64,000 nt of DNA from Acidobacteriota bacterium (lineage in GTDB: Bacteria; Acidobacteriota; JAAYUB01): assembly GCA_040768985.1 (NCBI GenBank), contig JAXGLX010000002.1:4485871-4549870 (forward strand), written 5' to 3'. Position numbers and translations under genes: made by a program. Positions within the stretch are counted from its first letter, which is position 1. Each line of letters starts with the position of its first letter. The notes under the pieces were generated by a model that worked only from the letters and a program-made list of their open reading frames with translations, made no database searches and was not told the origin of the DNA. Shown here piece by piece: positions 8,290 through 9,820 of this stretch.

Positions 8290-8650
8290 AACTATCCGCG
8301 ATACTGTGAACCTGTGAATCCGTGAACATTCCAACGTTCGAACATTCAAACGGCTCCATTACGAACACGATCACGATTACGGATTACGAGCTGGAACCAT
8401 CAACTCTCAATGAGCGGAAACGAGCCTCGAGCCTCGAGTCTCTAGCCTCGATTACGATCACGATTACGAATTACGATTACGAATCTCGATTACGATTACG
8501 AATCACGAGCACGAGCCATCAACTCTCAATGAGCGGAAACGAGCCTCTAGCCTCGAGCCTCTAGCCTCGATTACGATCACGATTACGAATCTCGATTACG
8601 ATTACGAATCACGAGCACGAGCCATCAACGATCAACCATCAACGATCAAC
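8290..8650. repeat. Minisatellite array: two tandem ~105-120-bp units (approx 8397-8515 and 8516-8620) built from GATTACGA / CACGAGCACGAG / CCATCAAC / GAGCCTCTAGCCTCGAG submotifs, plus flanking partial units
   Basis: Direct reading: unit ccatcaactctcaatgagcggaaacgagcctc[g/t]agcctcgag...cgattacgatcacgattacgaat...cacgagcacgag occurs twice in tandem; second unit lacks one 13-nt tacgattacgaat subunit. Confidence 0.8.
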
Positions 8651-8684
8651 AGTTGGCGAGCTTTCCAACCCCGGGCGCAGGCAC

Positions 8685-9464
8685 TCAGAGCAAATTCCGC
8701 GTCGAGCCCATCCGCATTTCGCTCAGGTTTTTCATCAGCGTGGAGAGCAGGTTGAACAATTGATTTGCCTTCTGGTCGAAATTCTCGACCGCGGTGGCGA
8801 CCGTCTGGCGTTCGTTGCGGGCCTGCTCCATCTGGGATTCCGCACCCCGGATCGCGTCCGACAATCCCCCCGATTCCGAATGCGCCGAGTCGGCGGCCGC
8901 CTGACCCGCGGCCCCGTGAAGGTGTTCCCGCACCGATTCGAAGGTGCCCCGCAGGAGGCCGTGGGTGCCGTCCAGCAGCTCGCGGCTCAGGCCCGAATCG
9001 GGCAGCCGGCCCAGGTGGTCGAAGAAGGAATCAAGCAAGCCGCCCACGGAGTCGGGCAGGGCCGTTTCTCGGCCGCTCCCTCCGGTGAGCGCCACGAGCT
9101 GCTGCAGCTCGGCGGTGCGGTCCTGCCAGAAGGCGGTTTCATGGCCGGTGGCCCGCAGCGTGGCGGGCAGGGCGGTCTGGAAGCCGGAAAGGGCTTCGGC
9201 GAAATCCGGTGGCAGGCCGGCGACGGCGTGGGTGGTAGCAAGCGGCGACGGGGCGGACGATTTCGCGGCGGAGAGAATATCCTGGATGATGCCGGGCGCG
9301 CCCGTCCCGGCGGGGGCGATGGCGTCAGCGAGTCCGGCCTGGTCCAGCGGCGGCGCGGAAGAGGCGGACTCGGGCGGTCGGGCCCCCTGGGCGGCGGTAT
9401 TCTGAAGCGGGTCCGGCGGCTCGTTGGCGGGGGACGAAAACCCGTCGTCCGAGATCTTGATCAT
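8685..9464 (-). CDS. Hypothetical protein: Pro/Ala/Ser-rich low-complexity N-terminal half, predicted helical C-terminal region; ATG at 9464 preferred over track GTG at 9473
   Basis: Track ORF 262 aa; GAGGTGA Shine-Dalgarno-like sequence 5 nt upstream of the ATG at 9464; no domain recognised by eye. Confidence 0.55.
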   Translation of the reverse strand: MIKISDDGFSSPANEPPDPLQNTAAQGARPPESASSAPPLDQAGLADAIAPAGTGAPGIIQDILSAAKSSAPSPLATTHAVAGLPPDFAEALSGFQTALPATLRATGHETAFWQDRTAELQQLVALTGGSGRETALPDSVGGLLDSFFDHLGRLPDSGLSRELLDGTHGLLRGTFESVREHLHGAAGQAAADSAHSESGGLSDAIRGAESQMEQARNERQTVATAVENFDQKANQLFNLLSTLMKNLSEMRMGSTRNLL

Positions 9465-9619
9465 GGTGGTCACCTCACGCGCGTATTTGCTGCTTTATCG
9501 GCGGTGCGGCCGAAATGTTGCCTGCCCTGAGCCCTGTATCCCGATATCCGGCGAGTCACCACAAAGGCACGAAGGACACAAAGAATGTAGAGGGTCGAGA
9601 GTTTAGAGTTGAGGGTTGG

Positions 9620-9820
9620 GAACGAGCCTCAATGCCCGAACCGCGAACCCCGAGACCCGATCACGATTACGAGCACGATGACGATTACGAGCATGAGCAC
9701 GGGGACGGGAACGAGCCTCTAGTCTCGAGCCTCTAGCCTCGATTACGATCACGATTACGAATTACGAGCACGAACCATCAACCATCAACTATCAACCATC
9801 AACTATCAACCCTCAACTCT
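9620..9820. repeat. Third copy of the minisatellite family (approx 9709-9817) with partial GATTACGAG-type subunits upstream and CCATCAAC(T/C)ATCAA short tandem repeats
   Basis: gaacgagcctctagtctcgagcctctagcctcgattacgatcacgattacgaattacgagcacgaaccatcaac matches the 8.4-8.6 kb units. Confidence 0.8.

What the first reader, a model, noticed from the sequence alone, without database searches (positions are those of the whole stretch)
8290..9820. Hypothetical gene bracketed by two arrays of an unusual GATTACGA-rich minisatellite
Two tandem ~110-120-bp units lie just downstream of the gene (8397-8620) and a third related copy lies upstream (9709-9817), so the gene is flanked by direct repeats about 1.1 kb apart. 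The units are mosaics of short words (GATTACGA, CACGAGCACGAG, CCATCAAC, GAGCCTCTAGCCTCGAG) and copies differ by gain or loss of a 13-nt subunit, suggesting slippage or recombination. Such repeats could mediate excision, amplification or phase variation, or be binding-site arrays.
Basis: seen in the sequence. Interest (0 to 1): 0.6.

Follow-up and report, generated by a model that had tools for sequence, protein, structure and literature searches.

The report
Mosaic intergenic repeats flank movable gene
The repeats on both sides of this hypothetical gene are real, but they are local copies of a repeat family (short 6-8-base tandem arrays strung together in a recurring order) that fills many intergenic regions in this group of uncultured Acidobacteriota; comparison with sister genomes shows that the gene plus its repeat ends sits at a different place there, so the repeats probably served as recombination handles, not as a switch.

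Summary
Two tandem units (119 and 106 nt) and a degenerate third lie downstream of a 259-aa gene (8685-9464, minus strand). A related copy lies upstream. GATTACGA occurs 15 times here, against 0.6 expected. The repeats are not specific to this gene. They belong to a modular family of short tandem arrays, which I label A (GTTGATG)n, B (TCGTAA/TCGTGA)n and C (AGGCTCG/AGGCTAG)n, joined in a recurring order. The family occupies dozens of intergenic regions in related Acidobacteriota metagenome-assembled genomes (MAGs). At least one ordinary gene there is bracketed in the same way. Eleven independent assemblies of the same species show no array length difference, so phase variation has no support. 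Two sister genomes lack window 7962-9724 between pckA and the next gene and carry a single hairpin-forming mosaic there. One of them carries the gene after the last gene of the same operon. The shared 1.2-kb segment ends on both sides in the same B-C module. Best reading: a dispersed, slippage-prone intergenic repeat family whose copies acted as portable homology for relocating the gene. Any cis-regulatory role is untested. This is a new variant of known kinds (cyanobacterial STRR heptamer repeats, E. coli BIME/REP mosaics). Interest is moderate.

The parts
9866..11509 (-). pckA (ATP-dependent PEP carboxykinase), the upstream neighbour. This is context, not part of the repeat.
   Evidence: Pfam PEPCK_ATP, E=6.6e-162.
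9773..9824 (-). Module A of the upstream mosaic: a heptamer array. It reads (GTTGATG/GTTGATA/GTTGAGG)n on the minus strand and AACCATC/AACTATC on the plus strand.
   Evidence: TRF period 7, 6.4 copies. It is one arm of inverted repeat I2. The same module recurs in lineage loci.
9740..9774 (-). Module B of the upstream mosaic: a hexamer array (TCGTAA/TCGTGA)n preceded by TTCGTGCTCG. It contains the family core TCGTAATCGTGATCGTAATCG.
   Evidence: Homology with L011 (the shared cassette) starts at 9761.
9706..9742 (-). Module C of the upstream mosaic: a heptamer array (AGGCTAG/AGGCTCG/AGACTAG)n ending in GGCTCGTTCCC. Homology to the 'empty' genomes L135 and L122 ends here (window 9725 and 9735).
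9621..9703 (-). Second hexamer array (9658-9703), followed by a (GGGTTCG/CGGTTCG) heptamer array and a second GGCTCGTTCCC junction.
   Evidence: TRF periods 6, 18 and 7. The alignment to L011 shows the heptamer array expanded there.
9590..9620 (-). Module A': inverted heptamers (CAACCCTCAACTCTAAACTC on the minus strand), complementary to module A.
   Evidence: Inverted repeat I2, 9601-9618 against 9807-9824, 18 nt, 94% complementary. The fold of the whole element is only weakly better than shuffles, z=-1.6.
9556..9587 (-). Module F: CTTTGTG..GTGCCTTTGTGGTGA. It also recurs in other loci of the lineage.
   Evidence: Seen in L011 (twice), L071, L113, L093 and L095.
9465..9523 (-). Gene-specific leader, conserved in all four species that carry the gene: CAGGCAACATTTCGGCCGC.CCGCCGATAAAGC...GAGGTGAC..CCATG. 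The ribosome-binding site GAGGTG is at 9476-9471.
8685..9464 (-). gene259: a 259-aa lineage-restricted hypothetical protein. The N-terminal half is predicted disordered and the C-terminal half helical, with the invariant motif RNERQ..T..NFDQKA.Q.FN.LS..K.
   Evidence: The exact product is on record in 16 contigs. Only 5 homologous clusters were found. No Pfam hit. Alignment A1. AlphaFold2 pLDDT 45. The C-terminal domain is found in 443 cluster representatives.
8622..8650 (-). Downstream module A: heptamers (GTTGATC/GTTGATG)n, starting 34 nt after the stop codon.
   Evidence: TRF period 7.
8516..8621 (-). Downstream tandem unit 2 (106 nt: A-word, TTCGTGCTCG-like, B, C, TTTCCGCTCATTGAGA). The cassette shared with L011 ends at 8540, at the end of this unit's C array.
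8397..8515 (-). Downstream tandem unit 1 (119 nt). It is the same as unit 2 plus 13 nt of hexamer array.
8249..8396 (-). Degenerate third unit. It has a different middle part, GGAGCCGTTTGAATGTTCGAACGTTGGAATGTTCACGG..., which is a module also seen in L011, L017, L021 and L066.
   Evidence: the repeat finder D2 and D3.
7962..8248 (-). Non-repetitive GC-rich spacer, absent from the sister genomes. Together with 8249-9724 it forms the 1763-bp segment missing in L135 and L122.
7284..7826 (-). gene180: a conserved 180-aa first gene of the hydrogenase/formate-dehydrogenase-like operon. Its conserved upstream stretch, CAACAATCCCTTGAC... (possibly its promoter), begins at 7961. This is context.
   Evidence: 219 homologues; synteny.

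Best explanation
The two repeat blocks are local copies of a lineage-wide family of non-coding, modular intergenic repeats in uncultured Acidobacteriota from digesters, sludge and sediment.

Each copy is a chain of short tandem arrays with periods of 6-8 nt. On the gene-sense strand the recurring order is A (GTTGATG)n, TTCGTGCTCG, B (TCGTAA/TCGTGA)n, C (AGGCTCG/AGGCTAG)n, GGCTCGTTCCCG, and then further arrays.

Shown:
- The family is dispersed over dozens of intergenic regions.
- Array copy numbers differ between species.
- Whole units of about 90-120 nt are duplicated in tandem in several loci.
- Arrays have the same length in all assemblies of one species.

Inferred: arrays change by replication slippage, and modules spread and are exchanged by homologous recombination or gene conversion between copies.

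At this locus the copies bracket gene259 as direct repeats, with about 36 nt of exact identity and longer imperfect identity. The segment bounded by the B-C modules sits at the pckA/gene180 junction in this species. In a sister species it sits after the last gene of the same operon, and there the pckA/gene180 junction holds a single mosaic.

Inferred mechanism: recombination between the flanking B-C modules excised the segment, or a segment containing it, as a circle. Recombination with a B-C module of another mosaic re-inserted it. The repeats therefore work as portable homology that makes the bracketed gene relocatable. They are not a fast on/off or copy-number switch. A cis function, such as a hairpin at the 3' end of transcripts, is possible for the palindromic copies but is not shown.
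For: 1. The family is dispersed.
By my count of the locus list, about 27 are in MAG JAKQOW01 and about 18 in JAGOHA01.
- blastn of the whole window against these blocks gives 154 HSPs. Every one of the 60 longest that were inspected maps to 8250-8650 or 9556-9860, apart from one match at 42527-42634 that belongs to the separate REP family. Identities are 72-90%. In a second blastn, with only the two repeat regions as query, the matches merge into 76 copies.

2. The module order recurs in 53 aligned copies.

3. 82 of 84 hexamer arrays are intergenic, and they occur in all gene-orientation contexts.

4. An ordinary isochorismatase-like gene in L027 is bracketed in the same way, by co-oriented copies 1.1 kb apart.

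5. There are no indels in the arrays in L001-L010 and L121. Orthologous intergenic regions of different species differ in copy number: A has 3 versus 5 repeats and C has 4 versus 5 in L027 versus L089, and the GGGTTCG array is expanded in L011.

6. Empty site. L135 and L122 align to window 9725/9735 onward and to 2-7961/7962, but lack the segment in between. They hold a single mosaic there, A-B-C-B'-A' or A-B-C-A'.

7. In the same contig as L135, gene259 lies after the 465-aa gene.

8. The shared cassette, window 9761-8540 = L011 9676-10925, is bounded by B-C at both ends in both genomes.

9. The gene occurs in a third context (fucosidase | gene259 | DUF7670) in L017-L021, and next to an IS110 transposase in L014.
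Against: - No recombination intermediate or polymorphic junction was seen. The relocation is inferred from a comparison of species that are only 83-98% identical in this region.
- The intergenic sequence to the right of the cassette differs completely among the three genomes. The event therefore cannot be reconstructed base by base, and a swap of the 10-kb operon instead of the 1.2-kb cassette fits equally well.
- What follows the operon in the window's own species could not be seen. L121 ends 280 nt into a mosaic, and the other contigs break there.
- The window itself is a patchwork of two genome types, though the pckA-gene259 junction is confirmed by many independent contigs.
- The consistent module order and the strong hairpins of the single copies (z=-4.5 and -5.8) could reflect selection for a function that this explanation does not name.
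Confidence: 0.6

Rival explanations
1. The mosaics are functional cis elements. They would act as long imperfect hairpins or protein-binding arrays in transcripts or DNA, serving as terminators, insulators, mRNA 3'-end stabilisers or regulator-binding sites, as proposed for REP/BIME elements and for heptamer repeat families in other bacteria. On this view the bracketing of gene259 simply reflects its two regulatory regions.
For: - The single copies at the pckA/gene180 junction fold far better than shuffles (z=-4.5 and -5.8).
- The arrays are almost exclusively intergenic.
- They often start at or within a few bases of stop codons. In three genomes the TAA stop of the 465-aa gene is the first TCGTAA of a B array.
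- No canonical intrinsic terminator follows gene259.
- Hexamer-array hairpins of the same vocabulary lie in intergenic regions of Gemmatimonadota, Verrucomicrobiota, Kiritimatiellia and Planctomycetota.
- Analogous proposals exist for TAACTGA repeats (PMC4679880) and GGGNATC repeats (PMC4692102).
Against: - The copies in the window are direct repeats without significant structure (z=-1.6 and +0.7).
- Orientation relative to flanking genes is only weakly biased: 47 co-oriented with the upstream gene against 27 opposed.
- Module content at orthologous junctions differs completely between close relatives, which argues against a fixed regulatory requirement.
- There is no Rfam match.
Confidence: 0.22
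2. The units are non-autonomous mobile elements (MITE-, REPIN- or BIME-like) spread by a transposase encoded elsewhere. That could be a REP-associated tyrosine transposase or an IS enzyme. gene259 would have been carried between two copies as a composite element.
For: - Dozens of dispersed copies share internal order.
- The palindromic single copies resemble REPINs.
- A Y1_Tnp (RAYT-like) gene lies next to a heptamer array in L017, and an IS110 transposase abuts gene259 in L014.
Against: - No defined termini, terminal inverted repeats or target-site duplications were found. Copy boundaries are fuzzy and modules are exchanged freely.
- The RAYT in L017 is flanked by ordinary GC-rich REP hairpins, not by these arrays.
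- The core has no match in viral contigs, and the downstream repeat block has none in plasmids.
- No transposase or integrase gene lies within 10 kb of the locus.
Confidence: 0.12
3. A contingency locus: slippage in the arrays or recombination between the flanking copies switches or amplifies gene259 at high frequency within populations.
For: The architecture fits: tandem units differ by a 13-nt subunit, and direct repeats lie 1.17 kb apart.
Against: - Array length is identical in 11 independent assemblies from different samples.
- The arrays lie outside the coding region and upstream of the conserved leader.
- The unit periods (6, 7, 106 and 119 nt) are not the 1-5-nt tracts typical of phase variation.
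Confidence: 0.03
4. An integron-like gene cassette, in which the flanking imperfect palindromes are attC-type recombination sites.
For: A promoter-distal hypothetical gene is bracketed by repeats of about 110 nt. It is present or absent at a site between relatives. The A/A' heptamers contain GTT...AAC.
Against: - No integrase is nearby.
- The neighbours are core metabolic genes, not a cassette array.
- The junctions fall in the B-C arrays, not at a GTT core.
- The gene carries its own conserved leader.
- The repeats are multi-array mosaics, not R''-L''/L'-R' sites.
Confidence: 0.03

Closest known systems
Short tandemly repeated repetitive (STRR) sequences and other heptamer repeat families in intergenic regions: cyanobacterial STRR; TAACTGA in Beggiatoaceae, Cyanobacteria and Bacteroidetes (PMC4679880); GGGNATC in Xanthomonas and Nostoc (PMC4692102)
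   Same: Arrays of 2-10 copies of 6-8-nt units, strongly enriched in non-coding DNA, present at many loci per genome, variable in copy number between loci and species, and of unknown function.
   Different: - As described, those families are one or a few units per genome. Here 93 distinct units were counted, chained in a recurring order with conserved non-repetitive linkers.
- Whole chains of about 100-300 nt are dispersed as units.
- The orientation bias is weak. By contrast, TAACTGA repeats lie just upstream of start codons, and GGGNATC repeats are placed in a strand-specific way.
Bacterial interspersed mosaic elements (BIME) built from REP sequences (PMC2817692, PMC3733652, PMC3116915)
   Same: Extragenic, high copy number, mosaic combinations of a small set of motifs, often palindromic, and known as substrates for rearrangements. 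The single copies here are long hairpins.
   Different: - The building blocks here are short tandem arrays, not 20-40-nt GC-rich palindromes with a GTAG or CGTC tag.
- No RAYT association was found.
- The genome does carry ordinary GTAG-tagged REP clusters elsewhere (42240-42869). These are a separate family.
Mycobacterial interspersed repetitive units (MIRU) and pneumococcal BOX elements (from my own knowledge; not checked in papers here)
   Same: Intergenic minisatellite-like units of about 40-120 nt in tandem. BOX elements are modular (boxA-boxB(n)-boxC) with a variable number of internal subunits, much as the 13-nt and whole-unit differences here.
   Different: No sequence similarity. MIRU and BOX modules are not themselves made of 6-8-nt arrays. 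MIRU copy number varies between strains, whereas here it does not vary within the species sampled.
Integron attC sites and Vibrio cholerae repeats bracketing cassettes
   Same: Repeats of about 100-120 nt on both sides of a hypothetical gene that is present or absent at a site between relatives.
   Different: There is no integrase, no cassette array and no core-site junctions. The repeats occur throughout the genome next to ordinary genes.

Membership tests
Dispersed intergenic short-tandem-repeat families (STRR-like) | Tandem arrays of a 6-8-nt unit | tested here: met
   TRF periods 6, 7 and 8 in both intergenic regions and in lineage loci.
Dispersed intergenic short-tandem-repeat families (STRR-like) | Many loci per genome, confined to non-coding DNA | tested here: met
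   About 27 and about 18 8-kb blocks in two MAGs, a lower bound. 82 of 84 arrays are intergenic by an ORF/GC3-based gene call.
Dispersed intergenic short-tandem-repeat families (STRR-like) | Copy number varies between loci and between relatives | tested here: met
   It varies between loci and species, but not within the species.
BIME/REP | 20-40-nt imperfect palindromes with a conserved GTAG or CGTC tag (PMC3733652) | tested here: not met
   The units are chains of tandem arrays. The window copies show no significant hairpin. Genuine GTAG-tagged REPs form a separate family at 42240-42869.
BIME/REP | REPs in alternating orientation at regular spacing; association with a RAYT gene (PMC2817692) | tested here: inconclusive
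   Some copies are A-B-C-B'-A' palindromes. The only RAYT-like gene seen (L017) is flanked by other hairpins. No complete genome was available.
MITE / non-autonomous transposon | Defined ends with terminal inverted repeats and target-site duplication | tested here: not met
   Aligned copies lose similarity at different points and have different flanking arrays. No duplication is visible at the filled/empty junctions.
Phase-variable contingency locus | Length polymorphism of the repeat tract within a species or population | tested here: not met
   There are no indels in the arrays in 11 assemblies. Read-level data were not available.
Integron cassette / attC | Integron integrase and attI nearby, or an array of cassettes | tested here: not met
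   Pfam annotation of 10 kb on each side shows metabolic genes only.
Integron cassette / attC | Recombination junction at the GTT of an R' core site; R''-L''/L'-R' architecture | tested here: not met
   The junctions lie in the C array and at the conserved stretch just upstream of gene180. An attC covariance model was not available.
Known RNA families (Rfam 15) | Match to a curated covariance model | tested here: not met
   There is no match at gathering score in the region. The only match with E up to 1 is a chance snoRNA hit.

The most novel reading that the evidence does not exclude
The modular chains of 6-8-nt arrays are an undescribed class of intergenic element with a function of their own. 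One possibility is multi-site platforms for a sequence-specific DNA- or RNA-binding protein. Another is dedicated recombination sites that make adjacent genes exchangeable between intergenic 'docking' positions, a cassette system without an integron. The hexamer-array hairpins of the same vocabulary in Gemmatimonadota, Verrucomicrobiota, Kiritimatiellia, Planctomycetota and Nitrospirota would be part of the same phenomenon.
Probability: 0.12. Interest if true: 0.7.

Novelty: new variant of a known kind. Interest (0 to 1): 0.4.

Why it matters
The result shows that a striking local pattern, a gene bracketed by an odd minisatellite, is one instance of a genome-wide repeat grammar in a poorly known, uncultured lineage. 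It also gives a concrete filled-versus-empty comparison in which such repeats mark the ends of a relocated gene.

If this holds generally, these mosaics would be a main driver of small-scale gene-order change in these genomes. They also appear to cause assembly breaks: many contigs end inside them. Their recurrence with a fixed module order raises the question of whether a protein reads them. The practical value is modest. It bears on annotating these MAGs, explaining fragmented assemblies, and supplying a candidate family for studies of repeat-mediated rearrangement.

Tried and rejected
- Rfam at gathering and at permissive thresholds found nothing relevant.
- Pfam and NCBIfam searches and a PDB sequence search of gene259 gave nothing significant. 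The best hit was the CT392 family at E=0.013, far below its cutoff.
- The AlphaFold2 model of gene259 was built on only 6 sequences and reached pLDDT 45. It is too poor for a fold search, so none was run.
- Exact look-up of the 262-aa GTG-start product and of pckA: neither is on record.
- I tried to see what follows the operon in the window's species. All contigs with the exact 629-aa protein stop right after the 465-aa gene, and L121 ends 280 nt into the mosaic.
- I suspected that the jump in divergence between strains lies at the mosaic. It does not. The switch is inside pckA, at about 10000-11500.
- I first read the genome-wide 21-mer hits as showing a very broad intergenic distribution. 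About 18 of the 95 blocks (Bryobacterales, Acidobacteriaceae) are a coding DYDHDYD motif in a conserved gene, and at least one more (L098) is a coding RNRD repeat. My automatic coding/non-coding classifier was unreliable in high-GC DNA, so counts for other phyla are by eye.
- Literature searches for the repeat words found no paper. A search for Acidobacteria intergenic repeats found nothing relevant.
- The 21-mer core has no match in viral contigs, and the downstream repeat block (8240-8690) has no match in plasmids.
- The consensus scans find no sigma-70 promoter upstream of gene259 and no intrinsic terminator between its stop codon and the arrays.
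Full report
**Observation**

The region was read directly. The gene is on the minus strand at 8685-9464. It starts at an ATG preceded by GAGGTG. That 259-aa product is on record in 16 public contigs, whereas the 262-aa GTG version is not.

- Downstream of the gene (lower coordinates) lie a heptamer tail (8622-8650), two tandem units (8516-8621, 106 nt; 8397-8515, 119 nt) and a degenerate third unit (8249-8396).
- Upstream, between the pckA stop (9866) and the gene, lies a 235-nt mosaic (9590-9824). Its part at 9706-9824 matches the downstream units.

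Tandem Repeats Finder gives a 119-nt period with 2.2 copies and score 405, plus nested periods of 6, 7, 13, 14 and 19. The repeat finder gives spacings of 119, 119, 106 and about 1150-1170 nt. The words are far above chance: GATTACGA has 15 of its 16 window hits here against 0.6 expected, and the two other words hit only here.

**What the repeats are made of**

On the gene-sense (minus) strand each unit is a chain of short tandem arrays. I label them as follows:
- A = (GTTGATG/GTTGATA/GTTGAGG)n;
- a linker, TTCGTGCTCG;
- B = (TCGTAA/TCGTGA)n;
- C = (AGGCTAG/AGGCTCG/AGACTCG)n;
- a junction, GGCTCGTT(C/T)CC.

The upstream mosaic adds a second B array, a (GGGTTCG) array, an inverted A' array (18 nt, 94% complementary to A) and a module F (CTTTGTG..GTGCCTTTGTGGTGA). 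The gene's own conserved leader follows.

No Rfam family matches. The consensus scans find no sigma-70 promoter upstream of gene259 and no intrinsic terminator between its stop codon and the arrays.

**The family is not specific to this gene**

The gene has only five homologous clusters, named 'Acidobacteriota bacterium' by NCBI. In the contigs that carry those homologues the same words occur next to the gene, and also in unrelated intergenic regions.

By my count of the locus list, about 27 are from one Acidobacteriota MAG (JAKQOW01) and about 18 from another (JAGOHA01).

blastn of the whole window against these blocks gave 154 HSPs. The 60 longest map to 8250-8650 or 9556-9860 at 72-90% identity, apart from one match at 42527-42634 that belongs to a separate REP family. 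In a second blastn, with only the two repeat regions as query, the matches merge into 76 copies.

Lining up 53 copies on the core shows the same grammar everywhere. The chain A, linker, B, C and GGCTCGTTCCCG(TAACGC) continues into (GGACATC/GGACTTC)n, then (GGACCTG/GGTTCTG)n, then (CCATTCAC)n, with alternative modules.

TRF on the lineage loci finds 93 distinct 6-8-nt units, at 10-13 arrays per 10 kb in these blocks, which are a biased sample. With a simple ORF/GC3 gene call that reproduces the window's genes, 82 of 84 B arrays are intergenic. They occur between convergent, divergent and co-directional genes, with only a weak bias: 47 are co-oriented with the upstream gene and 27 are opposed.

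In L027 an isochorismatase-like gene is bracketed by two co-oriented copies 1.1 kb apart, just as here. Within the 64-kb window, however, only the two intergenic regions around gene259 carry the family.

**Stability**

Contigs L001-L010 and L121 come from JGI, ENA, NCBI and Logan assemblies of different samples. They carry the identical gene and show no indels in either array. The only differences, in L008, are at its contig end. Several short contigs end inside the arrays, as expected for repeats.

Between species the arrays do differ in copy number. In the orthologous regions of L027 and L089, A has 3 versus 5 repeats and C has 4 versus 5. The GGGTTCG array is longer in L011. Tandem duplication of whole units recurs in L078, L104 and L121. 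The arrays therefore change on the time scale of speciation, not of populations.

**Filled and empty sites**

A search for relatives of the downstream gene180 brought in three long contigs.
- L135 is part of the same JGI contig as L012, which carries the 79%-identical gene259.
- L135 and L122 align to the window on both sides but lack window 7962-9724. The alignments cover 9725-19115 at 97.6% and 2-7961 at 91.9% for L135, and 9735-17530 plus 17795-19291 and 2-7962 for L122.
- In place of the missing segment they have one compact mosaic: A-B-C-B'-A' in L135 and A-B-C-A' in L122. These fold as long hairpins, with z=-4.5 and -5.8.
- In that genome gene259 lies after the 465-aa last gene of the same operon.

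The segment shared with the window runs from the upstream B array to the end of the first downstream C array. That is window 9761 to 8540, equal to L011 9676 to 10925, at 82.7% identity. In both genomes the shared segment is thus bounded by direct B-C modules.

A third context (fucosidase | gene259 | DUF7670) and an IS110 insertion next to the gene occur in other relatives. In the window's species the site after the 465-aa gene holds tandem units of about 105 nt (linker-B-C-TTCCC.TCCC), with no gene259 leader within the 280 nt visible.

**Interpretation**

Shown:
- a dispersed, modular, non-coding repeat family;
- stable within the species;
- variable between species;
- marking both ends of a segment that occupies different intergenic sites in sister genomes.

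Inferred: arrays change by slippage. Copies exchange modules by homologous recombination. The B-C modules, with about 36 nt of exact identity between the two flanks here, served as homology for excision and re-insertion of the gene259 segment.

An equally valid description is that the 10-kb operon and the 1.2-kb segment swapped order. The events cannot be ordered without an outgroup.

The window copies have no significant secondary structure (z=-1.6 and +0.7). Whatever the palindromic single copies may do, the blocks in the window are best seen as direct repeats.

**Rivals**

- A cis-regulatory or structural role remains possible and untested (hairpins, stop-codon adjacency, intergenic confinement).
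- A transposase-driven MITE model lacks defined ends and target duplications.
- Phase variation is contradicted by the assemblies.
- An integron-like cassette is contradicted by context and junction positions.
- The family core has no match in viral contigs, and the downstream repeat block has none in plasmids.

**Comparison with known systems**

The closest known kinds are the following:
- heptamer repeat families of intergenic DNA: cyanobacterial STRR, TAACTGA repeats (PMC4679880) and GGGNATC repeats (PMC4692102);
- the mosaic REP/BIME elements (PMC2817692, PMC3733652, PMC3116915).

The family here shares the short-unit arrays of the first kind and the mosaic, dispersed and partly palindromic nature of the second. 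It is a member of neither as defined. It has dozens of different units in a recurring order. It has no GTAG or CGTC-tagged palindromes. No RAYT link was found. No paper in the library contains the repeat words. I rate it a new variant of a known kind.

**Wider occurrence of the hexamer array**

Outside the lineage, the 21-mer also hits intergenic hexamer-array hairpins, B-loop-B', in Gemmatimonadota, Chthoniobacterales and other Verrucomicrobiota, Kiritimatiellia, Planctomycetota, Nitrospiraceae and Akkermansia. About 18 blocks from Bryobacterales and Acidobacteriaceae are instead a coding DYDHDYD motif. A uniform-composition estimate of chance hits for this pattern in 596 Gb is about 0.5 (my calculation), so the recurrence is real. 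Whether it reflects convergence or transfer is open.

**The gene**

gene259 has a predicted disordered N-terminal half and a helical C-terminal half (pLDDT 45, so this is weak). Its last 60 or so residues form a conserved domain. That domain is found at the extreme C-terminus of 443 cluster representatives with unrelated N-terminal parts, such as PAN and AbfB domains, and has no Pfam model. Its function is unknown. Nothing links it to the repeats.

**Caveat on the window**

A 500-nt identity profile shows a patchwork:
- window 2000-10000 and 17500-22000 are about 100% identical to the L001 type;
- window 11000-17500 is about 100% identical to the L135 type;
- window 1000-2000 is identical to L122;
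- the switch near the locus lies inside pckA.

This is either real recombination between co-occurring relatives or a chimeric metagenome assembly. It does not affect the pckA-gene259-gene180 arrangement, which many independent contigs confirm.

**Verdict**

Interest is moderate (0.4).

Noticed in passing
window 42240-42869: A separate repeat family: a cluster of GC-rich hairpins in both orientations (GACCCGCCTCGCGGGTCG, and CCCCGGG....CCCGGGG preceded by GTAG). It looks like ordinary GTAG-tagged REP/BIME elements. Part of it matches L099:46-154 in a related MAG.
   Followed up: partly
window 1-22000: The window is a patchwork of two or three related genome types. Positions 2000-10000 and 17500-22000 are about 100% identical to contigs L001, L002 and L121. 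Positions 11000-17500 are about 100% identical to L135 and are partly absent from L001. Positions 1000-2000 are 100% identical to L122. The switch near the locus lies inside pckA (about 10000-11500), and 76 of 78 mismatches to L001 fall in pckA. This is either recombination between co-occurring relatives or a chimeric assembly.
   Followed up: partly
window 17410-17533 (minus strand): A molybdenum/tungsten cofactor riboswitch (RF01055, 63.8 bits, E=5e-13). It is the only Rfam match at gathering score in the window.
   Followed up: no
window 8685-8880 (C-terminal ~60 residues of gene259): The C-terminal helical domain (RNERQ..T..NFDQKA.Q.FN.LS..K....E) is a widespread module with no Pfam model. 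It matches 443 cluster representatives at E<=1e-3, 215 of them at E<=1e-10. In nearly all of the 150 listed hits it sits at the extreme C-terminus, and the N-terminal parts vary (70-940 aa; PAN and AbfB domains in some).
   Followed up: partly
L121:20240-20260, L122:20240-20260, L135:20240-20260, L011:9676-9682: The TAA stop codon of the 465-aa last gene of the operon is the first TCGTAA of a hexamer array in all three genome types. The repeat therefore abuts or overlaps the end of the coding region.
   Followed up: partly
L036, L056, L058, L072, L088, L097, L102, L108, L111, L114 and others: Intergenic hairpins built from the same hexamer vocabulary (CTCGTG/ATCGTA/ATCGTG and its complement) occur in Gemmatimonadota, Verrucomicrobiota (including Akkermansia), Kiritimatiellia, Planctomycetota and Nitrospiraceae. 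Within one Gemmatimonadota MAG four copies share the same palindrome, so it is a dispersed element there too.
   Followed up: partly
L023, L025, L029, L032, L039, L043, L044, L048, L055, L057, L076, L080, L083, L085, L086, L100, L103, L105: In Bryobacterales, Solibacteraceae and Acidobacteriaceae the same 21-mer lies inside a conserved protein-coding gene, where the opposite strand reads ...DYDHDYD.... This is a coding coincidence, not an intergenic array.
   Followed up: no
L014:223-1680: An IS110-family transposase is inserted directly upstream of the gene259 homologue. It truncates the upstream mosaic within module F.
   Followed up: no
L067 (binned as Armatimonadota) and L095 (binned as Lentisphaerae): These short contigs carry mosaics with the exact module grammar of the Acidobacteriota lineage. 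They are probably mis-binned contigs.
   Followed up: no
L092:6600-6800 (Neomarinimicrobiota MAG): Hexamer arrays (TCGTAA, then CGGAAT/GGGAAT) appear to lie within an IS200/RAYT-like transposase reading frame (..MPNHLHGILII..).
   Followed up: no
window 47832-48058: An unusually AT-rich intergenic region (GC 0.44, against 0.67 for the window) upstream of the gene at 48059-49297.
   Followed up: no
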